Shown piece after piece: positions 9,447-46,009 of a stretch of 64,000 nt of DNA. The notes beneath the pieces were generated by a model. It was not told the origin of the DNA. It ran no database searches and saw nothing but the letters and a program-made list of their open reading frames with translations. The position numbers were made by a program, and so were the translations under genes. Source of the DNA: a virus; the IMG/VR virus record IMGVR_UViG_3300030101_002616, positions 1 to 64,000 of that record, one strand, 5' to 3'. Numbering within the stretch: position 1 is the first letter of the stretch; each line of letters starts with the position of its first letter.

Positions 9447-10155
9447 TCAAATGCGTAGAGAAATATTGGACACGGCTAGGTCTACTGGATTTGAAGGTAG
9501 CATACTAGACTTGTATCAAATGGCTAACCAAGGCGCTAATGTACCAGCAATGTTACAAGCAGAAGTACAAGCTAAGCAAGAGAATATGCTAGTTGCACAA
9601 ACTCCACAAGAACAACAAGTAGGTTTACGTGAGCAACAAGCTATGGGTAATACAGATGCTAGCATGGTTTTTCCAGACGTGCCAGCTAATACATCATTTA
9701 ATACTGAAGGTATGCAAGTGCCTATCAATATTACAAAGGTAGATGACCAAGGACATTTAGTACAATCGTATCAGAATGTACCACCAGGTATTAAAGACTT
9801 ACCTACAGGACCAAAGCGTGGTACAGTTATAGAGACACCAGCTTACAAGAAAGGTGGGTATAGATCTAAGTATGGCAAAGATCCAGTAACAGGTACAGGT
9901 AAAAAGCCAAAAGGTAGTGGTAGAAGATTATACACAGACGAGAATCCAAAGGATACTGTAGGTATTAAGTTTTCCACTCCAGCTGATGCTAGAGCCACTG
10001 TAGCTAAAGTCAAAAGAGTTAATAAACCTTTTGCTAGAAAGATACAAATACTTACTGTAGGCGAACAAAGAGCCAAAGTAATGGGTAAAAGTCAAGTATC
10101 AAGCATATTTACCAGGGGTAAAGAAGCACTAAGACGAGGTAGAAAAAAGACATAA
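9433..10155 (+). CDS. Bipartite hypothetical protein (Gln-rich N-part, YKKGG linker, basic YTDENP module)
   Basis: 240 aa between portal and putative scaffold; composition switches at AYKKGG. Confidence 0.75.
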   Translation: MMLNNQMRREILDTARSTGFEGSILDLYQMANQGANVPAMLQAEVQAKQENMLVAQTPQEQQVGLREQQAMGNTDASMVFPDVPANTSFNTEGMQVPINITKVDDQGHLVQSYQNVPPGIKDLPTGPKRGTVIETPAYKKGGYRSKYGKDPVTGTGKKPKGSGRRLYTDENPKDTVGIKFSTPADARATVAKVKRVNKPFARKIQILTVGEQRAKVMGKSQVSSIFTRGKEALRRGRKKT

Positions 10156-13033: not shown

Positions 13034-13843
13034 ATGAGCAAAAAAGTGTATTTAAGGGCTAAGCAGATTAATAATCACTTACCCAAGGAAATTAACGCTA
13101 GCGCTATTAGAAAACTAAGTAGCGTATTTGTAAACCGACAACCACTAAAACCTTTTGATCCACAAGATGAAAAGAAGTATTTAGAAGGCATGTTAGATGT
13201 AGATCCCGCTCACATGGAGTGGCCTAAGCACACTAAGAAATTTTGGGCTGAGTTTACTGTCCCAGTAGGTTTTGAAGGTGTAGAACTAGAAGTAGGTAAA
13301 ACTGAAGACGGTAAACCTATTGATATTAATGATTTCATCAAATATCATTTTGCATTGAAACATCCACACGTAGCACTAACTGAAGAAGAAATGAACGCAA
13401 GTTCACAAAAAAGATTCTTTATTCAAGATTTAGCTAAGAAGGATATTTTACGTAACAATGATATTCAAGTCAAGAAAGATGCTGACAAAGCATTTATCAA
13501 GGTAACTACTGATGAAAAACAAATGAGAAGAGTGTATAGATTATTGGGTAATACTAATCCAGATGTATTAACTAGAGAACAAGTAGAAAACTTACTCTAT
13601 GATATTAAGGAAAAATCGCCTAAGAAGTTTATCAAAGTATCTCAAGATAAACACTTAGAAATGAAGGCAGAGATTGAGACAATGGTTTCAGCTGGAGTAC
13701 TAAGAAAGATAGGTAACCAAGTTATCTTTATTGATGAGGTATTAGGAGAAACATTAGATGACACTGTTATACATTTGAGAGATAAAAAGAACTCAGGTAA
13801 ATTAACTACTTTAAGAGCAAAACTTAAAACACTAGCATCTTAA
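13034..13843 (+). CDS. Conserved crAss-like protein downstream of MCP
   Basis: 269 aa; position and motifs (KFW, PIDINDFIKYHFALKHPHVA). Confidence 0.7.
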   Translation: MSKKVYLRAKQINNHLPKEINASAIRKLSSVFVNRQPLKPFDPQDEKKYLEGMLDVDPAHMEWPKHTKKFWAEFTVPVGFEGVELEVGKTEDGKPIDINDFIKYHFALKHPHVALTEEEMNASSQKRFFIQDLAKKDILRNNDIQVKKDADKAFIKVTTDEKQMRRVYRLLGNTNPDVLTREQVENLLYDIKEKSPKKFIKVSQDKHLEMKAEIETMVSAGVLRKIGNQVIFIDEVLGETLDDTVIHLRDKKNSGKLTTLRAKLKTLAS

Positions 13844-28829: not shown

Positions 28830-29293
28830 AATTAGAAGTATTAAGATTTAGCTCACAGTCAGACTGTACACATGGATTGTTGTTTGAAGTAAATGATTTA
28901 GGCAGACACTTCTTGTGCTATACATTAGAAGACGAACATCGTGTTCTAAAAGTAAAAGGCGAGACAAGAATACCATCAGGTACATATAAAATAGAACTAA
29001 GAAAAGAAGGAGGATTTCATGCTAGATACGATAAAAAATATCCTGGTATACACCGTGGTATGTTGCATGTCATTGATGTTCCTGGTTTTGAGTATATTCT
29101 TATTCATACTGGAAACACTGACGAGCATACTGCTGGTTGTCTTATCGTTGGAGACAGTCAAGAAAACAATCTTATTCTCCGCGATGGGTTCGTTGGTAAG
29201 AGCGTTAACGCGTATAAGAGGATTTATCCAGCTATTGCAAAGGCAATAGAACAAGGAGAAGAAGTAACGATAGAATATATTGATTTTGATTAA
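28826..29293 (+). CDS. DUF5675-family protein (candidate peptidoglycan-acting lysis enzyme)
   Basis: CYTLED...ETRIPSGTY...DVPGFEYILIHTGN...HTAGCLIVG; the His...GC pair resembles an L,D-transpeptidase-like active site. Confidence 0.75.
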   Translation: MKLEVLRFSSQSDCTHGLLFEVNDLGRHFLCYTLEDEHRVLKVKGETRIPSGTYKIELRKEGGFHARYDKKYPGIHRGMLHVIDVPGFEYILIHTGNTDEHTAGCLIVGDSQENNLILRDGFVGKSVNAYKRIYPAIAKAIEQGEEVTIEYIDFD

Positions 29294-32994: not shown

Positions 32995-33678
32995 ATGACA
33001 CTAAATGAGATTGCATATAATATTTTAAACTTGGTTAGAGGTGGTAGATCTAGCAATAATGAACACATATCTCTTGATCAAGTTAAATTTAATGTGAAGT
33101 ACTACAGAGCTATGCTTATACGTAGAGACTTTGCTAGAAACGGTACTATAACTAGACACTTAGAACAAGATCTTAAATGCTTAGAGCTAGTTAAAGTAGA
33201 CGCGTCAAAGTGTTGCAATCTTCCTACAGAGTGTGCGGTGTATAAAACTATTAGAAAGATACCAAGAACAGTTAGATTTAATTTTAAGGATGCAGTTACT
33301 TATGTAGGCGCTATTGATGGTAAAACTAATATACCAATAGTAGAATCACACACGGTACAATGGTTACCATATGATAAGTACACTAAAAATAAAATGAAAG
33401 CTTATATGATTGAAGATCATTTGTATGTATACAATGCAGATGGTCTGAAGTTTATAAATGTCAGAGGGATATTTGAAGACCCTGAAGAACTCTCTGAGTA
33501 TGATTGTGACGGAAATGATTGCTATGATAGCGAATCACCATTTCCTATCCCTATGGATATGTTACAAACAATTACACAAGGTATTATGAGCGGAGAGCTT
33601 ATGATGCTATCAACGTCAGTAAATGACACAACTAATGATACGATGCAGGATCAGGGCAGACCTGCACCAAGACAATAA
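32995..33678 (+). CDS. Tail ring / tubular protein (crAss-like)
   Basis: TLNEIAYNI, CLELVKVD, VRGIFEDP, FPIP motifs. Confidence 0.7.
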   Translation: MTLNEIAYNILNLVRGGRSSNNEHISLDQVKFNVKYYRAMLIRRDFARNGTITRHLEQDLKCLELVKVDASKCCNLPTECAVYKTIRKIPRTVRFNFKDAVTYVGAIDGKTNIPIVESHTVQWLPYDKYTKNKMKAYMIEDHLYVYNADGLKFINVRGIFEDPEELSEYDCDGNDCYDSESPFPIPMDMLQTITQGIMSGELMMLSTSVNDTTNDTMQDQGRPAPRQ

Positions 33679-33702: not shown

Positions 33703-34443
33703 ATGAATAAGAAAAAAATGATGTACGGAGGGTCTAAGAAAAAGATGATGATGTACGGTGGTAAAAAAATGATGCAAAAAGGCGGTAAGCTAAGGATGGT
33801 AAAAGGTCCTGATGGCAAGATGGTTCCTTTCTATGCAGCTGACGGTAAAGGTAAGATGCAGATGGGCGGGAGTAATAGTTTGCCAGCTAAGGTACCAGCA
33901 GCAAAATTTGAGCGAGGTGATGGACCAGATAAAGGAATGTCTAAAAGAGATATGCGAAAGCGAGATAGAAAGAAAAGGAAAATAGAAAAAAGAATTGGCA
34001 GGATAATAGGTAAGGAAGGAGCAGCCACAGCTAAAATGCAGATGGGCGGTAACTTAGCTGATGTTAACATGAAAGATGCTAGAGAAGCAAAAAGAACTAG
34101 ACGTCGTGGTGAGAGAGGTATGGCAAAAGATGATGCTAAAAGAGCTAGAGCTGCTAACCGAATTAAGCGTGCTGGTGAAAGAGCTATGGCTAAGGACGAT
34201 AGACAGAACAAAAGAGCTAGCAGAAAAGCAAACAGAAAAATGGATGCTGCTGAAAGAAAGCTGTTAGCTGGGAGACAAGCTACTGCTCAAGGCAAGCTAA
34301 AGAAGGCTACTAGAAAAACTAGAAAAGTTGGTAAGAAACTTGGACAAGCTAGTAAAGCAATGATGGGCATGGGCGGTAAAAAGATGATGTACCAAATGGG
34401 TGGATTCATCGAGCCAGGTGTATTTGACTTAGATAGAGACTAG
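33703..34443 (+). CDS. Very basic low-complexity protein with MYGG/QMGG repeats
   Basis: K/R/M/G-rich, 246 aa, seven xxGG motifs. Confidence 0.75.
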   Translation: MNKKKMMYGGSKKKMMMYGGKKMMQKGGKLRMVKGPDGKMVPFYAADGKGKMQMGGSNSLPAKVPAAKFERGDGPDKGMSKRDMRKRDRKKRKIEKRIGRIIGKEGAATAKMQMGGNLADVNMKDAREAKRTRRRGERGMAKDDAKRARAANRIKRAGERAMAKDDRQNKRASRKANRKMDAAERKLLAGRQATAQGKLKKATRKTRKVGKKLGQASKAMMGMGGKKMMYQMGGFIEPGVFDLDRD

Positions 34444-34907
34444 TGCAACACACCATCTCTCACATATACAATGATTATGTAGAGGCTGACAGCAGTATAT
34501 CAAAGCAAACTTTTGTAGATATATGCAGTGAGTTTAATATGATGATTATAGATTACATTCTAGACGGTAAAGAGTTTAACATGGGGTATAACCTATCAAC
34601 TCTTTCCGTCGTAAGAATGGAGAGAGATCCTAGAAATCCAGGTATAGACTGGGGTGAGTCAAACAAATATAAAGCTGAGCTATTAGAAAATGGTAGTAAG
34701 CTTTACAACAAAGACACTGGAGACGGTGTCAAATGGCACATATACTATACAGACAATGAGTATCTTAAATACTACTGGCGTAAAGGTAAGTGCAAAGTAA
34801 AGAACAAAACAGTTTACAGATTTGATGCTACACGAGGAGTGAAGGGCAACAAGGGTAGACTGAAGGAATTAGATGAACTAGATTATTTAAAATTTAAAAA
34901 GAATTAG
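34443..34907 (+). CDS. Divergent IHF/HU-like protein (crAss-type)
   Basis: FVDICSEFNMMIIDYILDGKEFNMGYNLSTLSV resembles the IHF helix-strand core; position near ring genes as in crAss-like phages. Confidence 0.55.
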   Translation: MQHTISHIYNDYVEADSSISKQTFVDICSEFNMMIIDYILDGKEFNMGYNLSTLSVVRMERDPRNPGIDWGESNKYKAELLENGSKLYNKDTGDGVKWHIYYTDNEYLKYYWRKGKCKVKNKTVYRFDATRGVKGNKGRLKELDELDYLKFKKN

Positions 34908-34909
34908 AG

Positions 34910-35491
34910 ATGCCAAAAGACGCGTGTTATCATAAGGTTGTAGCCCGTTACGGTCCTAAGACATCTGCATACAGAAGTGGTGCGATGGCTAAGTGTCGTA
35001 AGGTTGGAGCTGCTAACTGGGGAAATAAAAGTAAAAAAGAAAAAGGTGGATTAGCTGCTAGTCTAATGTCAGACGTATATGGTAGTGGCCGCAAGTTAAA
35101 GAAAAGACAGAATGGCGGTCAGTCTAATATTGGACCAAAGTCGGCAAAGAGATTTAGAGAAAATCCATTTCCTGGTCCTGCGTTTACTAAGGAACAGGAA
35201 GCGCAAGCAGCAAGAGCAAGGAAGAAGGTTAAAAGGGCACTTAAAGACCCGTACGGAACACTCAGAAAGATAGGAAAGAAAATAAGAAAGAAACTGAAAA
35301 TGAAAAATGGAGGAGTTTCTAAAGTTAAAGGTGTTAGTACAGAAGGATTAACATCTAGACAAGCTACTACGTTAAAGAAACATTCTGTACATCATACTAG
35401 AAAACATATACAATCAATGGTTAATGCTATGAAGAAAGGTGCATCATTTAGTGCATCACATAAGATGGCGCAGAAAAAAGTTGGATCATAA
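34910..35491 (+). CDS. Basic modular protein (KDACYHKV module ... KKHSVHH module)
   Basis: 193 aa; segments separated by EKGG, QNGG and KNGG. Confidence 0.75.
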   Translation: MPKDACYHKVVARYGPKTSAYRSGAMAKCRKVGAANWGNKSKKEKGGLAASLMSDVYGSGRKLKKRQNGGQSNIGPKSAKRFRENPFPGPAFTKEQEAQAARARKKVKRALKDPYGTLRKIGKKIRKKLKMKNGGVSKVKGVSTEGLTSRQATTLKKHSVHHTRKHIQSMVNAMKKGASFSASHKMAQKKVGS

Positions 35492-35781
35492 TGGCTGTAA
35501 GAAAAACTGCTGCAGGCGCTAGACTAAAGCGTTGGTTTAAAGAAAAGTGGAGAACACCTCGTGGTAATAAAGACTACAGTGGAGGTGAGAACACATTTAG
35601 ACCTACTAGACGTATATCTAAAGATACACCATCTACGTGGTCTGAACTGTCTGCATCAGAGAAGGCTAGAGCTCAGCAAGAGAAGAATACTAAAGGAAGA
35701 GTTAGTAGATATAAAAAGAAAAAGAAAGTTAAACGTGCGAAGGGTGGTGGATTTATACTACCTGGACCAACAATGATATAA
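35491..35781 (+). CDS. Small basic protein (DUF5872-like, LKRWFKEKW...FRPTRRISKDTP)
   Basis: Motif recalled from aquatic-phage small proteins; family label unverified. Confidence 0.6.
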   Translation: MAVRKTAAGARLKRWFKEKWRTPRGNKDYSGGENTFRPTRRISKDTPSTWSELSASEKARAQQEKNTKGRVSRYKKKKKVKRAKGGGFILPGPTMI

Positions 35782-35783
35782 CT

Positions 35784-36053
35784 ATGGCAACACCAGCATG
35801 GCAAAGAAAAGCAGGAAAGAATCCTAGCGGTGGGTTAAACGCTGCAGGAAGACGATCTTATAATCAATCTACAGGTGGTAATTTAAAAGCTCCTAGTAAA
35901 AAGAAAGGAAACAAAAGACGCTCTAGTTTCTGTAGTAGAATGTGCGGCATGAAAGCTAAACGTACAGGAGCTAAAGGTCAAAGAGATCCTAAATCAAGAA
36001 TTAACAAATCGCTACGTGCATGGAATTGTGGTAGCTGTAGTAACTGGAGATAA
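35784..36053 (+). CDS. Small basic protein (DUF6321-like, PAWQRKAGKNPSGGLN...RRSSFCSRM...SLRAWNC)
   Basis: Motif recalled from aquatic-phage small proteins; family label unverified. Confidence 0.65.
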   Translation: MATPAWQRKAGKNPSGGLNAAGRRSYNQSTGGNLKAPSKKKGNKRRSSFCSRMCGMKAKRTGAKGQRDPKSRINKSLRAWNCGSCSNWR

Positions 36054-36054
36054 T

Positions 36055-37011
36055 ATGGCAGTATATAAGAACATATCAAGTAAAATGATTATACGTAAAG
36101 TTATGCGTGACTTGCGTCCTAATCATGCAGAATGGATAGATGATGCGGTAGAGTGGATAGGTGAGGCCTTAGAGCATATAGGAGCTGCATCACAACTTTG
36201 TCAAAAGCAATGCGTGCTTACAATAGAAGATCACAAAGCATGTTTGCCTGGAGACTTATACTTTATAAATCAAGTAGCAGTTAATGGTACTGTCGGCACT
36301 TCTGCAAGTGATGAGCTTGATGTTCTTACAGAGCAAGTTAGAAAACTCAGAGCTGACATAGCAGAATACAACTCAACATTAGAAGAAGATGTAGCTAACA
36401 ATGGAGCTAACATTACTAACGCAGATTTAACTACATATGATACACAATATAAATCAAATGTAACAGAACTTAGAGAGCTAATTAGTAGGATAACCGTTTT
36501 AGAGGGGATATATTTTAATACTAAGGGTGGGGGTGCTGGCCTAGAACCATTACGTTATGGGGCTAGCACTTTCCATAGCTCTATGCACTGCGACGATTGT
36601 ATTAATGAGCATGCACTAAACAATGAAAGTTATATAATAGATTGTGATTTTATAAAAACATCTTTTGCTAGTGGTAAGGTATGTATAAGCTATACAGCTT
36701 TTCCTATTGATGAAGATTGTTTTCCAATGATACCAGATGACATAAGTTATAAAGAAGCTATGTTCTGGTATATATACAAGCAAATGTTGTTAGGTGGATA
36801 TGATAAACCTAACAATAGAATAGATTATAACTTTGCTGATCAGAAATGGAAGTACTATTGTACTCAAGCTAGAAACGCTGCAAACTACCCAGATATTGAA
36901 AGATATGAATCTTATATGAATCAGTGGGTTAGACTTATACCAGATATTAATGCACACGATTGCTTCTTTGAATACCTAAATCATAGAGAAGATTTGAATA
37001 GAAATTACTAA
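36055..37011 (+). CDS. Tail ring / adaptor protein (start MAVYKNISSK)
   Basis: WIGEALEHIG, SYTAFPIDED.FPMIPD, YYCTQA motifs; directly upstream of the stabilisation protein as in crAss-like phages. Confidence 0.7.
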   Translation: MAVYKNISSKMIIRKVMRDLRPNHAEWIDDAVEWIGEALEHIGAASQLCQKQCVLTIEDHKACLPGDLYFINQVAVNGTVGTSASDELDVLTEQVRKLRADIAEYNSTLEEDVANNGANITNADLTTYDTQYKSNVTELRELISRITVLEGIYFNTKGGGAGLEPLRYGASTFHSSMHCDDCINEHALNNESYIIDCDFIKTSFASGKVCISYTAFPIDEDCFPMIPDDISYKEAMFWYIYKQMLLGGYDKPNNRIDYNFADQKWKYYCTQARNAANYPDIERYESYMNQWVRLIPDINAHDCFFEYLNHREDLNRNY

Positions 37012-40000
37012 TGGCTAAATATATAAAAGGATTAAATAAAGATGCGGCTCCAATAGATCAGCCCGAAGGATCATACAGATATGCTAAAAATGTATTACTG
37101 AATGAAACTGCTGGTGCTATATCTAATGAGCCAGGGACACAGGTTCAGCCTTCAACTCTTCTAGGAACAGTTATAGGGACTATAGAAACTACTGATGATA
37201 AGATTATTATCTATACTGTAGATGATAATGGTCGTTCTAGAATATATTTATTTGATAGTGCAGGTTCAGGCGCTACGTTTTTAATACTTACAACTACTGC
37301 TGGTAATGTAATAAATGGTAATGATGTTGATTTAAAATTTGACAAAAAACATCCTATAGAAGGTACATATAAAATTGATCCTAACGGAGATTTAATTGTA
37401 TACTGGACTGATAATTTTAATCCTCCACGAAGTCTTAATATTACAAGACAGCAAACAAGTAATAATACTATTATATATGGAGTTGATCCTATTGGATCAC
37501 CTAATAAAAATTACATAGATAGATTAAACTTATTTCCACATTCAGGTCCTGTTCCTAGAATAGCCTTTGATAGAATAGCAAATGGTGGTGCATTAAAGTC
37601 TGGGACATATACTTTATTCTTAGCATATGTTGACGAAAACTTTACACAAACAAACTTTGTATCATATTCATTAGCAGTTCCTATTGTAGAAGATGATGAA
37701 AGTGTAACACCAATAGAAAGATATGATGGATGTGAGCCTGATACACAAACAGGTAAATCTATTGTATGGGAAGTTGATAACTTAAATACAGATTATGAGT
37801 TTTTAAGACCTGTAGTAGTACATAGAAGTTTAGACAAAGATGGTTCTCCCGCAGAATTTGCTTTTAAATTAAATGATTTAGATATAAGTGCGGCTACAGC
37901 ATCTGTTACATTTTCAGGACTAGAGGGCTATCAGTCATCTTCTGTAGATGAAGCTATTATAGATACAGTATCTTATGATACTGCTAAAACTGTTACACAA
38001 TTAGATAGTGTTTTATATCTAGGTAATTTAACTGGAAATAAAGATATAGGTTATCAAAAGTACGCAAACTTTATATCGCTAGAGGCGGTAGCTGGACCTT
38101 CATTTAATCCTTTTGATCCGTATGAGTTAACTGCTGACAACTTAAATTATGGGTACATAGATACAGACCCTTATAGTCAGGTGCTATCTGGTATAACAAG
38201 ACAAGGAGGTTTTAGAGATGTGGATAGATTATCATCTACTAGGAATGCTCCTGCAAGTAATCCTGAACAAGTTTTTAATAGAAGAAGTTATTTTAGAGAT
38301 GAGGTATATGCATTTTATATAGCGTTTATACTTAATGATGGTAGCATGTCTTATGCTTATCATATACCTGGAAGATCAGCTAAGACAGACGTCGATGGCG
38401 GTTCTATTAGAAAAGTAGGAACTAATAATCCTATAGCAGGATCTGCTTCTGAACTTGATTCTACTGCAGACCCTGATCTTACACAGCTAACACAAGGACA
38501 AGGGCAGTTGTTTCACTTTCATGACTTCTCTATTTTTGGAACAAGTAATACTAACTTTTGGCACAATAAAAATGAGTTCTATCCTAATACGGATGACTAC
38601 TTAATGATTGATGCTAATGATCCTGATACTACAGTAGAAGACTTAAGAGGTAGCAATGTTAGACACCACCATATGCCTTGTAACACTAATAGTGATATGA
38701 GGACTATTGTTTCAAATAACAGCAGTATCAATGAGGCTGTAGATGAAACAACTACTGTTTATTATTTCTATTGGGGGGATCTAGCAGATAGTCAATCTGG
38801 TTTGAATGAAACCCAGGATTTGCATGTAACAGACTTTTCTGCTAATACAAGCGCTATAGATGATACAGGTGGAATAGGTTGGGGGGATTGGGAGGATGGT
38901 TCTGAAGATCTTCAAGATGCTTTTGGTGATATTAGCACTTGGACATATCAAGTGCCTACTGCAGGTGATATTGCAAATGGTAACTTACAAGGATATTTCT
39001 TATGGCGTTCTCCTGGTAATATTAATAGTGGGTTTACTACTGCTGAAGTGCAGGAGGTATTAAATAATGGAGATATAAATTTAAACCAAACTAATAGTGG
39101 TGGAGGTGTTTTTGATTGTCCTTGTGATCAGTTAAATACAGATCCTAATAATGTATATGGATATTTTGTTTGGCAGTCAACAACTCCTGCAGTTGATGCA
39201 GCCGGTTCAATATCACAAGAAGTTAGGCCTTTAGGTGTACGTCTTGATGATATAAAAATACCAAAAAGTATTGCAGATAAAGTACAAGGATTTAAAATAT
39301 ACTATGCAGAGCGTAAACACTCTAACAGAAGAATAATAGGACAGGATGTTTTAAAGAAGGCAGAAGATCTTGGTGAAAGAAATATAAGTGGATGTGAAGG
39401 AGAAAGTGGTAATGGATCTATTGAAGAGTTTATACTAAGTCCTGGGGCTTTAAGAAATGGGCCAATGACTACAGCAACCTTTCATGACTTTTATTTATTA
39501 CACAGAAAAAACAGTTTAGTTCCTGCTACACACACAAGTGAAGAGTATACAGTATCAATGTTTTCTATTAAAGGGCCTGGTCACACTTATGATGATGTTG
39601 ATGAAAATTTAACACCACTTGAAGCATGTCAGTATGGTAACTCTTATGTAACAGCTCACCTTGGAGGTACATATGGATTTTATACAGGTAATACTCTACC
39701 ATTCTTCCACTTCCCAATAAGAGAAAAATGTAAAACCTATTTAAATGGTGACTCTATATATGATGGTAGAGGTATAGGATTTGGTAAAAGAATATTTAAT
39801 ATAGGGGGAGAAACCTCTATTTTACTAGGCTTCAAACCTACAAGACAACCAGTCCAAGCTCTTTGGCCACAGGCTGATGGAGGAGTGTTTTGGCATGATC
39901 CTATTCCCGGTTCTTCAGATCCTTTTTCTTATGAGGCACCCTCTTCACCACCAGTATTAAAACTGCATAATTTACATGCTTTCAAAACAGATATGTATTT

Positions 40001-41933
40001 ATCGTTTGATACACAAGAGTTAGTGTGGACAGGATTTGAAGTAGTAGGAGATGAGTTAGATAACTATACAGTTGAAGATGACAACACCTCTACTCCAGGA
40101 GCTACTCACCAAACTGGTAATATATTTGGAGGGGATACTTTTATATGTAGACATGGTTATCGTATAACTCACAGGCCTGCATACCAAGGCACAGCGCCGT
40201 ATGATCATAAATCTTTAATATATGTAATATCTGAGTCTACAGATAATATAAACTTTAGACACGAGACAGACGTAGATAGCACATACTTTCCAGGATCTCC
40301 TGCTAAAAAATTATTAGACATAAAAGCAAATATAGATCTTACCAAGAAAGACAATATGAAGTATGATGAGTCTTTTTCTCTTGGGGTTGCAGATATAAAA
40401 CCAGCAATACCATATCCACTAAGAGAAGCTGACCCTAGTATATTTCAAACAAGAGTACAGAGATCTGCAAAAGCAGATAACACTAGTTTAATAGATAACT
40501 ATCGCGTATTTTTAGCACTACAGTTTAAAGATCTACCACGTAATAGAGGCAGTTTACATAGACTGATTACCTTAAACAACTTGTTATATCTACATACTCA
40601 AGATAGTTTATTTAGAACTAAGGGTAAACAATCATTACAAATGTCAGATGGCACAGAGTCGTTTGTAGGTAGTGGTGATATATTTGCTCAAGAGCCTGAT
40701 GAGTTAATACAAACTAAGTTTGGTTATGGAGGTACACAATCTCAATGGGTTTCTATAGTTACTAAACACGGATACTTTTGTATGGATTATAGAAATCGTA
40801 GAGTCTTTTTAATGAAAGATCAGCTATATGATATAGGTAAGACTGGATTAGAAAGTTGGTTTCAAGATAACATTCCATATGCCCTAGAACAACACGGCTT
40901 ACCTATAGACTTTGATAATCCTATAGTAGGTATAGGTTTTAATGCAATGTATGATGAAAGATATGATAGAATACTATTAACAAAAAGAGACTTAAAACCA
41001 ACTGCCGTTTTAGAAGAACTACTTGAAAATGCTAATGATAATTTTGCAGATGAAACTCAAACAATTGCAACATACGATGAAACACTGCAACAGTTTGTTA
41101 CAAAGTTTGAAAATCAAAATGGTAATATTGTAATCACTCCTATAGACTTTACGGATGATTACTATTTTACACTTTCAGGTTGGACAGTATCTTATAATGT
41201 AGAATCAAATGTTTGGGCATCTTTTCATGATTACATTCCATATAAGTATACTAGAATTAAAGATACATTAGTATCATTTAATGAAGGTAATAATGAAATT
41301 TGGATGCATAAAAGCGAAGAAAATCGTGGTAGTTTTTATGCTGTAGATTATGCTACAGAATTTGAGTTTATATATAATGCAGCTAAGGACAGTGACAAAA
41401 TATTTTATAGTTTTGAATATACTATTGATGTAACTGATGAACATGCACCTACAATAGATGGTGGTAAATTACGTCACGATCATGGATTTAATAGTTTTTA
41501 TGTATATACCACACACCAACTATCTGGAGAAAGTCCTATAGAGTATATGATAAATACTCGTAGAGTTGGTAATGAGTGGAAAATAAATAAGTTCAGAGAC
41601 TTAGCAGATTTACAAAACAATCAACAATTAACGTATGTAGGGCCTGCAGGAGTAGGCACTTTTACTGGTAGCAACTTTGGTGTAACAAGCGCTAATGTTG
41701 CCGGCACAATAACAACAGGCGTTACAACCCATTTAGCTAATACTTCAATGTTTAATGTAGATGGTATGACTGAAACTATAAACGCAGCCTTTATAAATGC
41801 TGCTAAATCATGGGAAACAAGAAGAAAGTTTAGAGATAAGTGGGTAGGAATTCGTTTAAAGTACGACAATGTTTCAAAAAAATTAATAAATTTGTATTCC
41901 ACCAACGTGGCTGCAAAAAAATTCTATAGATAA
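37011..41933 (+). CDS. Tail stabilisation / muzzle protein, 1640 aa
   Basis: KGLNKD...YRYAKN, VYWTDNFNPPR, RDEVYAFYI, FGGDTFI, YGGTQ, W.SFHDY.P, KFRDKW motifs of crAss-like stabilisation proteins. Confidence 0.85.
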   Translation: MAKYIKGLNKDAAPIDQPEGSYRYAKNVLLNETAGAISNEPGTQVQPSTLLGTVIGTIETTDDKIIIYTVDDNGRSRIYLFDSAGSGATFLILTTTAGNVINGNDVDLKFDKKHPIEGTYKIDPNGDLIVYWTDNFNPPRSLNITRQQTSNNTIIYGVDPIGSPNKNYIDRLNLFPHSGPVPRIAFDRIANGGALKSGTYTLFLAYVDENFTQTNFVSYSLAVPIVEDDESVTPIERYDGCEPDTQTGKSIVWEVDNLNTDYEFLRPVVVHRSLDKDGSPAEFAFKLNDLDISAATASVTFSGLEGYQSSSVDEAIIDTVSYDTAKTVTQLDSVLYLGNLTGNKDIGYQKYANFISLEAVAGPSFNPFDPYELTADNLNYGYIDTDPYSQVLSGITRQGGFRDVDRLSSTRNAPASNPEQVFNRRSYFRDEVYAFYIAFILNDGSMSYAYHIPGRSAKTDVDGGSIRKVGTNNPIAGSASELDSTADPDLTQLTQGQGQLFHFHDFSIFGTSNTNFWHNKNEFYPNTDDYLMIDANDPDTTVEDLRGSNVRHHHMPCNTNSDMRTIVSNNSSINEAVDETTTVYYFYWGDLADSQSGLNETQDLHVTDFSANTSAIDDTGGIGWGDWEDGSEDLQDAFGDISTWTYQVPTAGDIANGNLQGYFLWRSPGNINSGFTTAEVQEVLNNGDINLNQTNSGGGVFDCPCDQLNTDPNNVYGYFVWQSTTPAVDAAGSISQEVRPLGVRLDDIKIPKSIADKVQGFKIYYAERKHSNRRIIGQDVLKKAEDLGERNISGCEGESGNGSIEEFILSPGALRNGPMTTATFHDFYLLHRKNSLVPATHTSEEYTVSMFSIKGPGHTYDDVDENLTPLEACQYGNSYVTAHLGGTYGFYTGNTLPFFHFPIREKCKTYLNGDSIYDGRGIGFGKRIFNIGGETSILLGFKPTRQPVQALWPQADGGVFWHDPIPGSSDPFSYEAPSSPPVLKLHNLHAFKTDMYLSFDTQELVWTGFEVVGDELDNYTVEDDNTSTPGATHQTGNIFGGDTFICRHGYRITHRPAYQGTAPYDHKSLIYVISESTDNINFRHETDVDSTYFPGSPAKKLLDIKANIDLTKKDNMKYDESFSLGVADIKPAIPYPLREADPSIFQTRVQRSAKADNTSLIDNYRVFLALQFKDLPRNRGSLHRLITLNNLLYLHTQDSLFRTKGKQSLQMSDGTESFVGSGDIFAQEPDELIQTKFGYGGTQSQWVSIVTKHGYFCMDYRNRRVFLMKDQLYDIGKTGLESWFQDNIPYALEQHGLPIDFDNPIVGIGFNAMYDERYDRILLTKRDLKPTAVLEELLENANDNFADETQTIATYDETLQQFVTKFENQNGNIVITPIDFTDDYYFTLSGWTVSYNVESNVWASFHDYIPYKYTRIKDTLVSFNEGNNEIWMHKSEENRGSFYAVDYATEFEFIYNAAKDSDKIFYSFEYTIDVTDEHAPTIDGGKLRHDHGFNSFYVYTTHQLSGESPIEYMINTRRVGNEWKINKFRDLADLQNNQQLTYVGPAGVGTFTGSNFGVTSANVAGTITTGVTTHLANTSMFNVDGMTETINAAFINAAKSWETRRKFRDKWVGIRLKYDNVSKKLINLYSTNVAAKKFYR

Positions 41934-41935
41934 TT

Positions 41936-44900
41936 ATGGCAAAATCAAGAGCTCAACAAGCAGCAATAGCAATATCAATGAAGAAAGCAGGTAAGAAGCC
42001 TAGACTAAGAAAGAAACAAAAGGGTGGAGAGTATACTGTTAAGAGTGGAGATGCTATGTATAAAATAGCTAAGAAATATAACATGTCCACAAGCGACTTA
42101 ATGGCACTAAATCCTGAAATTAACGAAAGAGGTGATATTCGTCCAGGACAAAAGATAATTACAAAAGCGCCTTCAGAGTCTTTCTTTGACAACTTTAATC
42201 TGCCTTCAGGTAAAAAGGCGGTTAAAGAAGTTTTGCAAACATCTACTGGTATAAATCAGGCAGATTTCTTAGGGCTTATACCTGCAAATGTTAAAGCTTT
42301 TGTTTCTGATATTACAGGTATAGGTAAGTCAGAAGGTATTACTGAAAAAGATCTTAATAACAGGGAAAAGAAAGCTCTAAGAGAAGCTATAAAAAGAGCT
42401 GAGGAAAAAGGTAAAAATTATATTGAATATCCAGATTTTGCATCGGCTGCTGAACCAACATCAGACATCGGTGGAGGAACTTTTTTACAAGGCTTTGCTC
42501 CTATAACAAAATATTTTGATCCTAAGTATTCTATGAAAACTCTGTTAGGACAGGCTAAATTTAAAAAGAATAAAGATGGCACTTATACAGTGACTGATCA
42601 GTTTAATTTTAATGATGCTAGTAAAGCTGGATTTAAAGGAGTTATTGCAGACATTAAAGATCAAGGCATTGCAGGACTTTCTCCTTATAAGTTTGCAAGA
42701 AATATTGCAAGAAACTTTGGTTCTGCTGAAGGTGAGGGTATGGATGTAAACATTACATTTCAAAAAGGTGGTGTAAGCGATACAATAAAAGTAAGCTCAA
42801 CAGATCAAGCAGTTGCTAAAAAGAAACTTCAGAATAAGTTTAATGGTAGAATACCAAATAACGCAGTTCTTACTTATGACAAAGATACTGGGAAGTATAC
42901 ATACACAGTTCCTCCAACCCCTCCTAAAGTAGATCAAAAAAAGGAAGGCGGTTATCCTAAGAGCAGTAACAAAGAGTTCATGAGACGTATGGGTTACTAC
43001 CAAGGAGGTGGATTAAATCAAACTCCTATGTACGGCTCTAACACTATACCGGGTACACCAGAAACAGCTGCTATCACATATCAAGAAGCAGATCAATCTA
43101 GACTAAAAGCATTAGAAGAACAATTAAAAGAAGCTCAAGAGTCAACTAAGTTTCAAGATGAAGCAGAGGCAGAAGTTGCTAAACAAGCATCTACTATTAG
43201 TGGTATAGAACAAGGACTATCACAAGGTGTAAAAGGCCTAGATAAACTTGGAGCGTTTGATAAGTTAAAAGAGAAAGGTGCTGAAAAAACTGAAGCTTTA
43301 TCAAAGCTAGGAGAGAATGCTGCTACAAATCTTGCTAGAGTAGGAGCTACTAAGGCAGACGAGGTAAGCAAAATTTTAGCTGATCAGTTAATACCCAAAG
43401 GAGGAAAAGTTATTGACGTTGCTAAAGATAAACTAAACATGGGTTTAGGTACTGATTACATGGGTGGTTTTGGATCAGATCAAGCAGCGAAGTTTGGAGA
43501 GATGCTTCAGCAATCAAATCCACAACAAGTTATATTGAGAGAGGGTGCAGAAGAAGCACTTAAACAAACCACTACGAATGTAGCAAGTGGTTTAACTCCT
43601 GCTCAATACGGAAACATAGGGGCAGTTGCATCACTTGCAGGTGAAGGTATTAAGATGGCATCAGACGATAAAGATGCTACTACAATGAATGTAGGAGAAA
43701 GTGTGGGTTCAGGACTGTCAGGTGTTGGTACAGGTATTGGTGCAGCAACAACTACAGCTATGCTAATGGGAGCTCCTTTAGGTCCTGTAGGTATGGCTGC
43801 AGGTGTAATTGGTGGAGCTGCATATGGTTTAGGTAAAGGACTTATACAAAGAGGTAAGGCTAGGAGAGAAGAAGAGAAAGCTGAAAGAAAAAAAGAGAAA
43901 CAGTTATCAAAAATAGGAACACAGAGTAGATTAGAAGCACTTAAGTCTAAACAGTATTCAGGATTTGATTTTGGTGCTGATGTTAGACAGGGTGGAGGAT
44001 TTAGTGGAACGTTAGATAACATACAAGACGGATTAACACTAGCTGGATTAGCAGGGCCTGTAGGACCTTTTGCAGATATAGCTAATACTGTTATTTCTGC
44101 AGGTAGAGGAATTTATTCTGGTGTAACAGGAGATACAACAGCAGCTAAAAAACATGCAGTGAACACAGGCCTTAATTTAGTTTCAGCTATACCAGTTATA
44201 GGTGATACAATATCAGCTCCTAAAGCAATAAAAGCAGGAGCAAATTTAGCTCAGAAGGCCGTAGTAAAAGGAAAGAAAGTTAAGTCAGGAGCAAATATAT
44301 TACAAGCTGCAAACATTATAAATCCTGCTGGTAACTTCCAACCTTCTGTAGATATGAATCAAACATTTGCTTCAGAAACAACTGGGGTTAGACCTCCAAT
44401 AATTCCAGAGATGATGAATTTACCTAAGTTTCCACAGCAACCTCCTATACCAAAGATAGGACCTAGTACAAGAAAAAATGGTGGTGTAAAACTGCCAGGT
44501 GGTGTAGCTAAGCCTATACCAGGATCTGATGCTATAGAGTTCAAAGGTAGAAGTCATGCACAAGGTGGTATCATGGTAGACCCTATGACAGAAGTAGAGG
44601 GCAATGAAACAATGGATAAAGTAACTATGAATAAAGGTGGTAAAAGAGATTACTTCTTCTCACAACATTTAAAGATGGGGGGCAAGTCATTCGCACAGAG
44701 ACATAAAGATATATTAAAGAAAGGCGGTAGTCAAAAAGATATTGACTCGTTAGCTAAACTACAAGAAAAGAAAGCAGGTAGAAATCCTAACACTGTTAAG
44801 TTAGGTGCAGGTGGTTACTATCAAGGTGGCGGAATGTTTAAGAAAAACCCTAACGATTTTGGTCAGACTTATGATGATGGAACCCCAGTATACAATGACC

Positions 44901-46009
44901 AAGGTTTAGTACAACCTCCAGCTTCTTTAGTTCAAGATTTTCAAAATAGAATGTTCCCACAGGTAATACAAGATCCTGTAGTAGGTGATTTCGATCCTAT
45001 AACAGACATACCTTCAGCAACAACAACTAATAATACTAAAAACGAACCTACTAATACCACTAATAATGAAGAGGAACGTATTGTAGATGGAAATGTTGAA
45101 CTTTTAGATCCTATACAAGTTACTCAAATACCTGTAGACGATACCATGCCACCAACATTACAGCCTATTGCTGTTGATGAAAATGGTATGCCTATAGAAT
45201 CTGACTACAACTCGCTTTCAGATGAAGATAAGAGTGTAGTAGATAAAGCAAACTCAGGAGCTGATCTAACAGACTTAGAGAAAAAAGCTTTAAAGAGATT
45301 ACGTAGAGATGTTCCTGGTCTAGCTATAGGTGCGGGGGTTGCACAACTTATTGCACCTGCATATGCATTCTTTAAGAAAGATAGAGTAGCAGAGCAGATG
45401 GGTGCGCCTGGTAGAATCAAAGCTCCTACACTAGATAGAGTAAGCTATAACACTGAGCGTGCTGCTAATGCTGCAGATAATAGAGCTATGAATAGGTTCA
45501 TTGAGACTAGTGGTATTGGACCGGCTGGTATCATTGCTAAGATGTCTGCGTATAGACGTAAGCAAGAAGGTGATCTAAAGATTGCTGCACAAGAGTCTAG
45601 AGTAAATACTCAGATTGCAAATCAAGAAGCGCAGATGGCTCAGCAAGCTAATGCAAGAAACGTTGCTAATGCAATGCAGGCAGATCAAATTAATACTCAG
45701 TTAAGAGAAGCACAGTTAGCCGCTAATCAAGATAGAAGACTAGAAGCTATAGACTCATTTACAGAAAGAACTGCAGGACTAGCTGGTGATCTAATGGCAT
45801 ACAAAGGTACTGAAAGGTTAGCAAGAGCTACTGGCGATATGGGTATCTATGAAAGAGATAGACTAAGAACATTCTTAAAGAATCAAGTTAATCCTAGAAC
45901 AGGTCAGCCATATACAAATGCTGAAATAGCTGAACTATTTAACAAACGTTTTGGTGAAGCTCAAGCAACTAAAGAAGATAAAGAAGATAAACAAGATGAG
46001 CAGATATAA
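41936..46009 (+). CDS. Modular virion cargo / ejection protein with LysM domain and glycine zipper, 1357 aa
   Basis: LysM YTVKSGDAMYKIAKKYNMSTSDLMALNPEI...IRPGQKI (42029-42160); Gly-zipper (about 43700-43840); GRSHAQGG...EVEGNE module; position between muzzle and giant proteins. Confidence 0.8.
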   Translation: MAKSRAQQAAIAISMKKAGKKPRLRKKQKGGEYTVKSGDAMYKIAKKYNMSTSDLMALNPEINERGDIRPGQKIITKAPSESFFDNFNLPSGKKAVKEVLQTSTGINQADFLGLIPANVKAFVSDITGIGKSEGITEKDLNNREKKALREAIKRAEEKGKNYIEYPDFASAAEPTSDIGGGTFLQGFAPITKYFDPKYSMKTLLGQAKFKKNKDGTYTVTDQFNFNDASKAGFKGVIADIKDQGIAGLSPYKFARNIARNFGSAEGEGMDVNITFQKGGVSDTIKVSSTDQAVAKKKLQNKFNGRIPNNAVLTYDKDTGKYTYTVPPTPPKVDQKKEGGYPKSSNKEFMRRMGYYQGGGLNQTPMYGSNTIPGTPETAAITYQEADQSRLKALEEQLKEAQESTKFQDEAEAEVAKQASTISGIEQGLSQGVKGLDKLGAFDKLKEKGAEKTEALSKLGENAATNLARVGATKADEVSKILADQLIPKGGKVIDVAKDKLNMGLGTDYMGGFGSDQAAKFGEMLQQSNPQQVILREGAEEALKQTTTNVASGLTPAQYGNIGAVASLAGEGIKMASDDKDATTMNVGESVGSGLSGVGTGIGAATTTAMLMGAPLGPVGMAAGVIGGAAYGLGKGLIQRGKARREEEKAERKKEKQLSKIGTQSRLEALKSKQYSGFDFGADVRQGGGFSGTLDNIQDGLTLAGLAGPVGPFADIANTVISAGRGIYSGVTGDTTAAKKHAVNTGLNLVSAIPVIGDTISAPKAIKAGANLAQKAVVKGKKVKSGANILQAANIINPAGNFQPSVDMNQTFASETTGVRPPIIPEMMNLPKFPQQPPIPKIGPSTRKNGGVKLPGGVAKPIPGSDAIEFKGRSHAQGGIMVDPMTEVEGNETMDKVTMNKGGKRDYFFSQHLKMGGKSFAQRHKDILKKGGSQKDIDSLAKLQEKKAGRNPNTVKLGAGGYYQGGGMFKKNPNDFGQTYDDGTPVYNDQGLVQPPASLVQDFQNRMFPQVIQDPVVGDFDPITDIPSATTTNNTKNEPTNTTNNEEERIVDGNVELLDPIQVTQIPVDDTMPPTLQPIAVDENGMPIESDYNSLSDEDKSVVDKANSGADLTDLEKKALKRLRRDVPGLAIGAGVAQLIAPAYAFFKKDRVAEQMGAPGRIKAPTLDRVSYNTERAANAADNRAMNRFIETSGIGPAGIIAKMSAYRRKQEGDLKIAAQESRVNTQIANQEAQMAQQANARNVANAMQADQINTQLREAQLAANQDRRLEAIDSFTERTAGLAGDLMAYKGTERLARATGDMGIYERDRLRTFLKNQVNPRTGQPYTNAEIAELFNKRFGEAQATKEDKEDKQDEQI

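What the first reader, a model, noticed from the sequence alone, without database searches (positions are those of the whole stretch)
33703..46009. Recurring xxGG motif delimits modules in several basic/cargo proteins: candidate processing or packaging signal
Seen: a motif of roughly [K/R/Y/M]-x-[Q/K/E/M]-x-G-G recurs about 20 times in five proteins. These are 9433 (YKKGG), 33703 (MMYGG x2, MQKGG, MQMGG x2, MGMGG, YQMGG), 34910 (KEKGG, RQNGG, MKNGG), 35491 (RAKGG) and 41936 (KQKGG, FQKGG, KKEGG, YQGGG x2, RQGGG, RKNGG, MNKGG, LKMGG, LKKGG). It often falls where composition or domain identity changes, e.g. directly before the LysM domain, the YTDENP module and the KKHSVHH module. Established: adenain and the ASFV pS273R protease mature core polyproteins after Gly-Gly. 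Inference: these are polyproteins cut at GG, or the motif is a capsid-loading tag; it could also be a recombination seam for module shuffling. No protease is recognisable in this window.
Basis: partly seen in the sequence, partly recalled or inferred. Interest (0 to 1): 0.8.

Follow-up and report, generated by a model that had tools for sequence, protein, structure and literature searches.

The report
Glycine-pair joints in crassvirus cargo proteins
In a marine crAss-like phage, the small basic proteins and the first ejected "cargo" protein are built from tiny interchangeable modules, and a short signature (Tyr/Met-x-x-Gly-Gly) marks the module borders; the signature is real and apparently undescribed, but nothing yet shows that the proteins are cut there.

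Summary
Observation confirmed. All 22 listed motifs exist.

In 49 related viral contigs the enrichment holds only in the two equivalent gene positions: 155 observed vs 20 expected, and 99 vs 20. The refined motif is K-[K/M]-[Y/M]-x-x-G-G-[K/L/F/V].

The window is the first 64 kb of an 80.5-kb marine crassvirus. Gene 41936 is cargo protein C1. Its conserved domain matches the portal-bound domain of crAss001 gp45 (Z 8.6).

The motif does delimit modules. This is shown by homology break points, gene splits and fusions, module insertions and deletions, and AlphaFold domain borders. It also ends N-terminal leaders and precedes conserved C-terminal tails. Three listed sites (aa 901, 915, 930 of C1) lie inside a folded domain.

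Codons at the glycines vary, so this is a protein-level signal. No protease was found by Pfam or PHROGs among the ORFs scanned, which cover all but the small ones at window 1-5.2 kb.

Best reading: an uncut hinge between beads-on-a-string cargo modules (about 0.45). Protease site: about 0.3.

The scan had noted the same basic-protein cluster on another genome, without follow-up.

The parts
32995..33678 (+). Tail ring protein 2 (context; upstream border of the basic-protein island)
   Evidence: Pfam CrAss_Ring_2, E 6.5e-43. Its LVRGG near the N-terminus is a conserved feature of the fold, not part of the linker motif.
33703..34443 (+). 246-aa K/R/M/G-rich basic protein. It has 7 motifs (GG at aa 9, 19, 27, 55, 115, 224, 233) and ends with the tail GG-FIEPGVFDLDRD.
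   Evidence: 6-7 motif matches vs 0.3-1.5 expected. No Pfam or PHROG family. The sequence turns over fast in relatives while the motif array and tail persist.
34399..34440 (+). Y-Q-M-G-G plus a 12-aa C-terminal tail; candidate docking or incorporation peptide
   Evidence: 30 of 98 non-identical ORFs in this gene position end with a Y-x-x-GG-F-[LI]-E-P-P-like tail on otherwise unrelated proteins.
34443..34907 (+). HU/IHF-like protein (context; no motif)
   Evidence: Weak Pfam HU-DNA_bdg hit (E 4.6e-4, below cut-off). Conserved between the two ring genes in 46 loci and in crAss001 and phi14:2. 0 motifs in 38 orthologues.
34910..35491 (+). 193-aa, four-segment basic protein: DACYHK..NWG module, GG46, short helix, GG69, helical module, GG134, KKHSVHH module
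   Evidence: AlphaFold helices at 5-14, 20-32, 48-57, 94-111, 114-133 and 152-189; the three GG pairs lie in the low-confidence gaps. Homologues lack or gain whole segments exactly between GG pairs. 971 homologues share only single modules.
35491..35781 (+). DUF5872 protein ending RAK-GGG-FILPGPTMI
   Evidence: Pfam DUF5872, E 1.9e-12. Same type of tail after GG as in 33703.
35784..36053 (+). DUF6321 micro-module. It belongs to the module pool, but its own two GG pairs lack the linker context.
   Evidence: Pfam DUF6321, E 3e-21. 70-80% identical copies in 525 phage records, including T4-like cyanophages and pelagiphages. Fused behind other modules in relatives.
36016..37011 (+). Tail ring protein 1 (context)
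   Evidence: Pfam CrAss_Ring_1, E 2.3e-51.
37011..41933 (+). Muzzle protein (context)
   Evidence: Pfam crAss_MUZ, E 8e-49.
41936..46009 (+). Cargo protein C1 (1357 aa), beads-on-a-string. Border GG pairs at aa 30, 278, 338, 357-359, 686-688, 849 and 959-966.
   Evidence: First gene after the muzzle gene, as gp45 is in crAss001. Modular homology with break points at the motif. 11 motif matches vs 1.5-1.8 expected.
41936..42028 (+). 31-aa basic N-terminal leader of C1 ending K-Q-K-G-G
   Evidence: The same leader is found in L001 and L003, where a different module follows it. 57% of C1-type ORFs in relatives have the motif within the first 40 aa, against 9% of control ORFs.
42029..42946 (+). 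LysM plus lysin-like plus small beta module (aa 32-337), an insertion relative to L001-L003 that lies exactly between two GG pairs
   Evidence: Pfam LysM at aa 33-75; phrog_7348 'endolysin' at aa 114-275. L002 starts matching at q336, and L004-6 and L008 at q278.
44477..44809 (+). Portal-binding domain of C1 (aa 848-958), flanked by RKNGG and GAGG-YYQ-GGG. GG pairs at 901, 915 and 930 are internal loops.
   Evidence: AlphaFold pLDDT about 90 for aa 848-958, with disordered flanks. VIA-align top hit 7qog_M (crAss001 gp45 aa 425-552): Z 8.6, rmsd 2.9 A, 89 aa, 25% identity; the next hit has Z 3.8. gp45 is the only PDB sequence hit, E 0.19.
9433..10155 (+). 240-aa protein between the portal and scaffold-like genes: DUF192, then YKKGG (aa 137-142), a basic spacer, then the YTDENP micro-module
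   Evidence: Pfam DUF192 at aa 53-137. Residues 162-238 are 83% identical to ORFs in unrelated marine contigs.

Best explanation
The motif is the conserved end of a basic spacer. It acts as a joint between small, independently folding modules, N-terminal leaders and C-terminal docking tails in proteins that this marine crassvirus packs into its tail barrel and capsid and ejects into the host.

Shown: the motif is a protein-level signal, it sits at module borders, and modules are gained, lost, fused and split exactly there.

Inferred: the K/M-rich stretch with Tyr/Met three residues before the glycine pair, and a hydrophobic residue after it, forms a short helix stop or hinge. This keeps neighbouring modules structurally independent. 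The chain can then thread through the portal and tail as beads on a string, as proposed for crAss001 gp45. New modules from the marine phage pool can be spliced in without disturbing folding.

In this reading the chain is not necessarily cut. Incorporation into the virion would be mediated by the leaders and tails attached through the joint, not by the glycine pair itself.
For: 1. The enrichment is restricted to the island between the ring genes and to C1, here and in 49 related loci. Tyr at -3 is enriched 9.5-fold, Met 3-4-fold, and F/L/V/I/M at +1.
2. Codons vary.
3. Borders: 52% of HSP end points lie within 5 aa of a motif, vs 9% at random. C1 is split into two ORFs at the aa 686 motif in 11 loci. 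The window carries a 300-aa insertion between the GG pairs at 30 and 338. Indels in the 193-aa protein are bounded by GG pairs.
4. AlphaFold: the folded domain aa 848-958 is bracketed by motifs. GG134 of the 193-aa protein ends a helix. All three of its GG pairs lie in low-confidence gaps.
5. Features that argue against obligatory cleavage. Arrays are spaced 8-10 aa apart. Motifs lie 2-4 aa before stop codons, followed by conserved residues (GGKKC). Pro at +1 is not depleted, at 1.2x and 0.9x. No protease was found by Pfam or PHROGs.
6. In crAss001 gp45, aromatic-GG pairs flank both segments resolved by cryo-EM: AYGG at 209 before segment 214-245, AFGG at 427 and AYGG at 562 around segment 425-552. 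The authors model one continuous chain bridging tail and capsid (PMC10172136).
Against: A plain flexible linker does not need a conserved Tyr/Met at -3 and Lys around it. That degree of conservation suggests recognition by a partner: a protease, a ring or portal pocket, or DNA.

The N-terminal leaders (Met plus 12-25 basic residues plus Y-x-x-GG) and the conserved tails after GG look like pro-peptides. Fused and split forms being equivalent is what a polyprotein model predicts.

The helix-stop idea rests on two AlphaFold models whose confidence is low exactly at the joints. Continuity of the gp45 chain in crAss001 was assumed, not measured.
Confidence: 0.45

Rival explanations
1. Maturation cleavage site. 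The proteins are polyproteins or pro-proteins cut after Gly-Gly by a phage-encoded or host protease that Pfam and PHROGs do not recognise. Cutting would release small basic core peptides and separate the functional parts of C1, and would remove leaders and tails after they have served for incorporation. This would parallel adenovirus pVII and pX with adenain, or T4 internal proteins with gp21.
For: A GG pair preceded by conserved positions is typical of clan CE, C39 and deubiquitinase-type sites. 57% of C1-type ORFs in relatives carry Met plus 12-25 basic residues plus Y-x-x-GG within the first 40 aa, against 9% of controls. Conserved tails follow GG. Where C1 is split, the C-terminal GG of ORF-a and the leader GG of ORF-b collapse into a single GG in the fused window protein. 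Internal docking-like peptides are bracketed by GG on both sides. The substrates are very basic, probably DNA-associated proteins, as in adenovirus (established knowledge). The equivalent cargo gene of phi14:2, g070, carries two HExxH motifs, so proteases among crassvirus cargo are conceivable.
Against: No protease family was detected among the ORFs scanned, and there is no HExxH. DUF192 is present in only 2 of 8 related phage genomes tested. Pro at P1' is not depleted. Tandem sites 8-10 aa apart, and sites 3 aa from the C-terminus followed by a conserved KKC, would yield pointless fragments. The hydrophobic residue sits at P5, not at P4 as adenain requires. No processing has been reported for crAss001 cargo.
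Confidence: 0.3
2. Multivalent short linear binding motif. The repeated K/M/Y-x-x-GG units are themselves the functional element. They would bind packaged DNA, the very acidic scaffold-like protein (10248-11381), or repeated pockets of the 12-fold ring or portal assemblies. Proteins carrying many copies would then be recruited and condensed in the virion. The coincidence with module borders would be secondary.
For: Tandem arrays with little or nothing between copies (33703 and its counterparts). Specific conservation of Tyr, Met and Lys. The carriers are encoded between the ring protein genes. In crAss001, short cargo segments bind the rings, muzzle and portal in 6-12 copies (PMC10172136). An extremely acidic protein is encoded next to the capsid gene.
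Against: No partner is shown. In C1 the motif occurs singly at borders, not in arrays. The same modules in other phage lineages are joined without this motif. Single-chain prediction cannot test binding.
Confidence: 0.15
3. Nucleic-acid-level feature. The motif would reflect a DNA or RNA signal, such as a recombination hot spot, a Shine-Dalgarno-like AAAGGAGG, or A-rich internal translation starts at the Lys-Lys-Met-Met stretches, rather than a protein signal.
For: K-G-G can be encoded as AAAGGAGG. Lys-Lys-Met-Met gives A-rich runs before in-frame ATG codons, and true ORF N-termini resemble the internal motif.
Against: Glycine codons are mixed, and only a few sites contain GGAGG. Met is also enriched directly before GG and after it, which a start-codon role does not explain. 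The motif is conserved as amino acids across loci with 42-94% protein identity.
Confidence: 0.05

Closest known systems
Cargo protein 1 (gp45) of Bacteroides phage crAss001 (PDB 7QOG and related; PMC10172136)
   Same: It is the gene directly after the muzzle gene. The portal-binding domain has the same fold (Z 8.6, 25% identity). It is a long chain with short ordered segments separated by unresolved stretches. Aromatic-GG pairs flank the ordered segments.
   Different: Pairwise BLASTP is not significant. The window protein is 1357 aa against 842 aa, and carries LysM and a lysin-like domain. The strict K/M/Y-x-x-GG context is absent from gp45 (0 matches). crAss001 has no island of small basic proteins between the ring genes.
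Adenovirus protease (adenain) sites (M/I/L)-X-G-G|X in core proteins pVII and pX; ASFV pS273R G-G|X sites (established knowledge)
   Same: A glycine pair preceded by Met or another hydrophobic residue, recurring in very basic proteins that travel with the genome.
   Different: The hydrophobic residue is one position further upstream (P5). No clan CE protease or any other protease was detected in the genome. Sites occur in tight tandem arrays and next to C-termini. Cleavage is not shown.
Capsid targeting sequences of phage T4 internal proteins, removed by prohead protease gp21; propeptides of phiKZ/SPN3US ejection proteins (established knowledge; PMC5694885 and PMC10052503 listed, abstracts only)
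   Same: Short N-terminal leaders on proteins that are packed in the head and ejected; each leader ends in a fixed short motif.
   Different: Those motifs end in Glu, and a prohead protease gene is present. Here the motif is GG, it is also internal and C-terminal, and no protease gene was found.
Polyvalent proteins of phages and conjugative elements (Iyer et al. 2017, J Bacteriol; recalled from memory, not read here)
   Same: Combinatorial fusion of many unrelated small domains in proteins delivered with the DNA.
   Different: Those are mostly enzymatic, anti-defence domains with embedded peptidases. Here the modules are 30-80-aa basic domains of unknown function, joined by a specific motif, and no peptidase is present.
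Double-glycine leader peptides cleaved by C39 peptidase domains (established knowledge)
   Same: An N-terminal leader of 15-30 aa ending in GG.
   Different: That leader is acidic and hydrophobic (LSxxELxxIxGG), and its cargo is exported by an ABC transporter. Here the leaders are strongly basic, the proteins are virion cargo, and no C39 domain is found in the phage.

Membership tests
Crassvirus cargo protein 1 (gp45-like) | Encoded directly downstream of the muzzle protein gene | tested here: met
   41936 starts 3 nt after the crAss_MUZ gene. Same order as gp44-gp45 in crAss001.
Crassvirus cargo protein 1 (gp45-like) | Compact domain with the fold of the portal-bound domain (gp45 aa 425-552) | tested here: met
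   AlphaFold model of aa 848-958 (pLDDT about 90). VIA-align hit 7qog_M with Z 8.6, rmsd 2.9 A, 89 aa; the next hit has Z 3.8. gp45 is the only PDB profile hit, E 0.19. Foldseek did not find it.
Crassvirus cargo protein 1 (gp45-like) | Presence in the virion, with parts in both tail barrel and capsid | not testable with these tools
   Needs virion proteomics or cryo-EM of a cultured relative.
Adenain / clan CE type maturation sites | Virus-encoded cysteine protease of clan CE (Peptidase_C5, C48, C57, C63) | tested here: not met
   Pfam scan of the window ORFs from 4385 on and of the longer ORFs (80 aa or more) in 63.7-80.5 kb, plus PHROGs on a subset of them: no protease family. The other small ORFs at window 1-5.2 kb were not scanned. 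A very divergent or host enzyme cannot be excluded.
Adenain / clan CE type maturation sites | Consensus (M/I/L)-X-G-G|X or (M/I/L)-X-G-X|G, with the hydrophobic residue at P4 | tested here: not met
   The strongest enrichment (Y 9.5x, M 3.5x) is at -3 from the first Gly, which is P5. P4 is mostly K/Q/M. A minority of sites (MMYGG, KMMGG) fit.
Adenain / clan CE type maturation sites | Cleavage products in mature virions | not testable with these tools
   No proteomic data for this uncultured phage. The crAss001 mass spectrometry gives no size information.
Double-glycine leader / C39 substrates | N-terminal leader of 15-30 aa ending in GG | tested here: met
   The window C1 leader ends at aa 31. 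57% of C1-type ORFs in relatives have the motif in the first 40 aa.
Double-glycine leader / C39 substrates | Leader consensus with conserved hydrophobic and acidic positions (LSxxELxxIxGG), and a C39 peptidase partner | tested here: not met
   The leaders are Lys/Arg-rich. No Peptidase_C39 in the phage genome. The host is unknown.
T4-type capsid targeting sequence plus prohead protease | Prohead protease gene in the head module | tested here: not met
   Between the portal and capsid genes lie only a DUF192/YTDENP protein and an acidic scaffold-like protein. DUF192 is present in only 2 of 8 related phage genomes tested.

The most novel reading that the evidence does not exclude
A tailed phage matures a set of protamine-like core peptides and its ejectosome from polyproteins by cutting after Gly-Gly, using a protease that belongs to no recognised family or is borrowed from the Bacteroidota host. 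This would be an adenovirus-like core maturation system in Crassvirales, with leaders and tails acting as removable virion-targeting signals.
Probability: 0.3. Interest if true: 0.85.

Novelty: new variant of a known kind. Interest (0 to 1): 0.6.

Why it matters
Crassviruses carry megadaltons of cargo protein, and how that cargo is selected, packed and threaded through the tail is an open question.

A conserved punctuation motif gives three things:
- A simple rule for parsing otherwise unannotatable cargo proteins into modules.
- Candidate incorporation signals, namely the leaders and the GG-FLEPP-type tails, that can be tested by fusing them to reporters.
- A concrete hypothesis of proteolytic maturation that one mass-spectrometry experiment can settle.

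The finding also exposes a pool of 30-80-aa basic modules that are 70-100% identical between crass-like phages, pelagiphages and T4-like cyanophages. Their function is unknown although they are very widespread in marine viromes.

Tried and rejected
1. DNA-level motif or Shine-Dalgarno-like word: rejected, because glycine codons vary.
2. DUF192 (9433) as the missing protease: rejected as a general candidate. It is found in only 2 of 8 related phage genomes tested, and not in crAss001 or phi14:2.
3. Zincin motif: no HExxH in the genome's ORF set (60 aa or more, non-overlapping) and only one in the 49 loci, in an unrelated upstream ORF.
4. Pairwise BLASTP of C1 against crAss001 gp45: not significant. 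Foldseek against the PDB: nothing. The relation appeared only with a profile (E 0.19) and with VIA-align.
5. Near-identity DNA search in cultured phages: only a 256-bp DUF6321 match to a pelagiphage. The capsid protein is about 30% identical to all known crassviruses, so there is no cultured close relative.
6. The strict motif in cultured crassviruses (crAss001 gp40-47, phi14:2 g067-74): absent.
7. Pattern scans of IMG/VR. KKMMYxxGG gave 24 stretches, about 9 of them on contigs of this clade. The rest include small K/M/Y/G-rich proteins beside the same micro-modules on other marine contigs, plus some chance matches. YxxGGFLEPP gave only 8 stretches, so the system is largely clade-restricted.
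8. Literature: no paper mentions DUF6321, and one mentions DUF5872 in passing. Nothing on proteolysis of crassvirus cargo.
9. ESM Atlas for the 246-aa protein: only unnamed viral clusters, with scores below 0.82.
The context of the zincin-plus-module protein P0026 could not be examined.


Full report
WHAT THE WINDOW IS

The window is the first 64 kb of a single 80,483-bp contig with a roughly 100-bp terminal overlap and about 35% G+C. Pfam identifies these crassvirus proteins:
- major capsid protein, 11428-12882
- ring protein 3/4, 13843-15006
- ring protein 2, 32995-33678
- ring protein 1, 36016-37011
- muzzle protein, 37011-41933

PHROGs identifies the large terminase. The capsid protein is only about 30% identical to every crassvirus in the cultured and reference collection. 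This is therefore a distant, uncultured marine lineage. A gene carrying a type IX secretion tail points to a Bacteroidota host.

The finding covers two things. The first is an island of small, very basic proteins between the two ring genes: 33703, 34910, 35491 and 35784, around an HU-like gene. The second is the first gene after the muzzle gene, 41936.

THE OBSERVATION

Whole-protein shuffles give 1.5 and local 30-residue shuffles give 2.1. It does not occur in the other 18,170 residues of the window, where 2.8 are expected. GG alone is barely enriched; the signal lies in what precedes it. The patterns were defined after the fact, so I looked for independent data.

A search with ring protein 1 returned 49 related viral contigs with 42-94% identity. 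I sorted their ORFs by position and counted identical sequences once:
- ORFs between the ring genes: 155 observed vs 20 expected
- ORFs after the muzzle gene: 99 vs 20
- upstream genes, R1, R2, HU, muzzle and C2: at expectation for this pattern (a looser pattern is about 2-fold over in the muzzle protein)

The 246-aa protein diverges so fast that BLAST recognises it in only six loci, yet the motif arrays persist. What is conserved is the motif, not the sequence.

The position-specific picture is K-[K/M]-[Y/M]-x-x-G-G-[K/L/F/V]. Tyr three residues before the first Gly is enriched 9.5-fold between the ring genes and 5.2-fold in the post-muzzle ORFs. Glycine codons vary freely, so the signal acts at the protein level.

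WHAT 41936 IS

A 22-sequence alignment of residues 840-990 (A1) shows a well-conserved domain. Its profile hits one PDB sequence only, cargo protein 1 (gp45) of crAss001, weakly (E 0.19).

The AlphaFold model is confident for residues 848-958 and disordered on both sides. An exhaustive structural comparison puts the portal-bound domain of gp45 (7QOG chain M, residues 425-552) first, with Z 8.6, rmsd 2.9 A, 89 residues aligned and 25% identity. The next hit has Z 3.8. Foldseek missed this match and pairwise BLASTP was not significant.

Together with the gene order, this makes 41936 the C1 cargo protein of this phage. Compared with gp45 it also carries a LysM domain and a lysin-like segment at its N-terminus.

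DOES THE MOTIF DELIMIT MODULES?

Yes, by four kinds of evidence.

(a) Homology break points. On C1, 52% of 117 internal HSP end points lie within five residues of a motif GG, against 9% for random motif positions (p about 5e-5). The large clusters are at 278, 333-342, 682-691, 824-853 and 949-987.

(b) Gene fission and fusion. In eleven loci C1 is two ORFs. The first ends 7-19 residues after the GG that aligns with residue 686-688. The second starts with a leader that ends in its own GG. In the window these collapse into one GG. Relative to L001-L003, the window carries a roughly 300-residue insertion (LysM, lysin-like, small beta module) exactly between the leader GG (30) and the GG at 338.

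(c) Module indels in the 193-aa protein. One homologue lacks residues 70-133. Three carry an extra module between KKGG and QRGG. Several stop at residue 66. All of these edges are GG pairs.

(d) Structure prediction. RKNGG and GAGG-YYQ-GGG bracket the folded portal-binding domain. In the 193-aa protein the three GG pairs lie in the low-confidence gaps between helices, and GG134 directly terminates helix 114-133.

One correction to the finding is needed. The sites at 901, 915 and 930 of C1 are conserved loops inside the folded domain. They are not borders.

WHAT ELSE THE MOTIF MARKS

Most C1-type ORFs in relatives begin with Met, then 12-25 basic residues, then Y-x-x-GG. This holds for 57% within the first 40 residues, against 9% of control ORFs.

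Many proteins end with GG followed by a conserved tail:
- 30 of 98 island ORFs end with Y-x-x-GG-F-[LI]-E-P-P-[IV]-x-N-[IL]-[DF]-[DE]. Both 33703 and 35491 of the window are among them.
- Other groups end GG-[ML]-R-[ML]-G-[MI]-P-R-Y, GG-x-R-Q-Y-[TV]-S-R-L-G, or GG-K-K-C.
- Where such tail-like peptides are internal, they are bracketed by GG on both sides.

In crAss001 gp45, aromatic-GG pairs flank both segments that cryo-EM resolved. AYGG at 209 precedes the barrel-bound segment 214-245. AFGG at 427 and AYGG at 562 surround the portal-bound domain (PMC10172136). A looser form of the joint therefore seems old in C1.

THE MODULES

The modules belong to a pool shared by unrelated marine phages.
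- DUF6321 has 70-80% identical copies in 525 phage records. These include T4-like cyanophages, where it is the C-terminus of a gene annotated as a structural protein (T4-GC119), and pelagiphages, where it is a stand-alone small gene.
- The DACYHK..NWG module is 100% identical over 39 residues in otherwise divergent contigs. It occurs in 971 proteins in many combinations.

Other lineages join the same modules with acidic or poly-Lys linkers, often with G or GG just before the module. The K/M/Y-x-x-GG form is largely restricted to this clade and a few other marine contigs.

IS IT CUT?

I could not show that it is.

Against cleavage:
- Pfam on the window ORFs from 4385 on and the longer ORFs beyond 63.7 kb, and PHROGs on a subset of them, find no protease. 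The other small ORFs at window 1-5.2 kb were not scanned.
- There is no HExxH.
- The gene in the usual protease position, 9433 (DUF192), is present in only two of eight related phage genomes tested.
- Pro directly after GG is not depleted.
- Sites occur 8-10 residues apart and 2-4 residues before stop codons, followed by conserved residues.
- The hydrophobic residue is at P5, not at P4 as adenain requires.

For cleavage:
- The positions before GG are conserved more specifically than a plain linker needs.
- The leaders and tails look like pro-peptides.
- Fused and split forms are equivalent.
- The substrates resemble the adenovirus core proteins.
- The equivalent cargo gene of phi14:2 has two HExxH motifs.

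The crAss001 study assumed, but did not measure, a continuous gp45 chain.

VERDICT

The claim that the motif delimits modules is supported. The DNA-seam idea is rejected. Cleavage remains a live minority hypothesis.

My best reading, at about 0.45, is an uncut hinge or helix-stop joint. It keeps micro-modules, leaders and docking tails independent in beads-on-a-string cargo, and makes module exchange easy. I put a protease site at about 0.3, a multivalent binding motif at about 0.15, and a nucleic-acid-level signal at about 0.05.

I found no description of this motif in the literature searched.

Earlier notes of this scan had flagged the same island on this genome and on another genome, and the shared GGFIxPG tail, without follow-up. 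One of these notes called the C1 domain 'pre-toxin-TG-like'. The structural match shows that it is the portal-binding domain instead.

Noticed in passing
window 10248-11381 (+): A 377-aa protein between the DUF192 gene and the capsid gene. It has an extremely acidic N-terminal third (long Glu/Asp/Tyr runs) and a basic C-terminus. No Pfam or PHROG family. By position and composition it looks like a scaffolding protein, and it could be the counter-charge partner of the very basic cargo.
   Followed up: partly
window 34910-35030 (+); L058, L069, L070, L074: The first 39 residues of the 193-aa protein (the DACYHK..NWG module, with two conserved Cys) are 100% identical in otherwise divergent marine viral contigs. 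The module occurs in 971 database proteins in many different fusions. Its function is unknown and it has no Pfam family.
   Followed up: partly
window 35784-36053 (+); L052 2051-2752; L053 1151-2740: DUF6321 is the C-terminal domain of the cyanomyovirus core gene annotated 'T4-GC119 structural protein', which lies between the small and large terminase genes. That 529-aa protein in S-P4 also contains the DACYHK module and a CWxGY module seen in relatives of this island.
   Followed up: partly
L056 10360-12141 (-), Cellulophaga phage phi14:2 g070: The gene after the muzzle gene in phi14:2 is annotated 'tail protein' and was detected in virions. It contains two HExxH motifs (HEFTH, HEFIH). It may be a zincin-like peptidase among crassvirus cargo.
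   Followed up: no
L026-L044, ORFs just upstream of the HU-like gene: A subgroup of the clade has 200-410-aa island proteins that all end ...K-K-K-M-(M)-G-G-K-K-C, with a conserved Cys as the last residue. They also contain a conserved P-GGGG-RF..KYGKS module and dockerin-like FPDLNGDG segments. A 75-aa membrane protein gene always precedes them.
   Followed up: no
window 9433-10155 (+): A DUF192 (UPF0127) domain is fused through YKKGG and a basic spacer to a 'YTDENP' micro-module. That module is 83% identical to ORFs in unrelated marine contigs. DUF192 is present in only some relatives.
   Followed up: partly
window 45951-46009: The listed TTG start of the 813-aa C2-position ORF overlaps the end of C1 by 59 nt. 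An in-frame Met 15 codons downstream (sequence MSRYKL) looks like a more plausible start.
   Followed up: no
window 28826-29293 (+); L058, L069, L070, L074: The DUF5675 protein is 71% identical in other marine contigs, some of them not obviously crass-like, that also carry the micro-module cassette and a K/M/Y/G-rich small protein. These genes appear to travel together.
   Followed up: no
P0026 (160 aa): A database protein fuses a small domain carrying an HExxH motif (HEKVH) to the DACYHK module. This is a possible link between the module pool and a minimal zincin.
   Followed up: no
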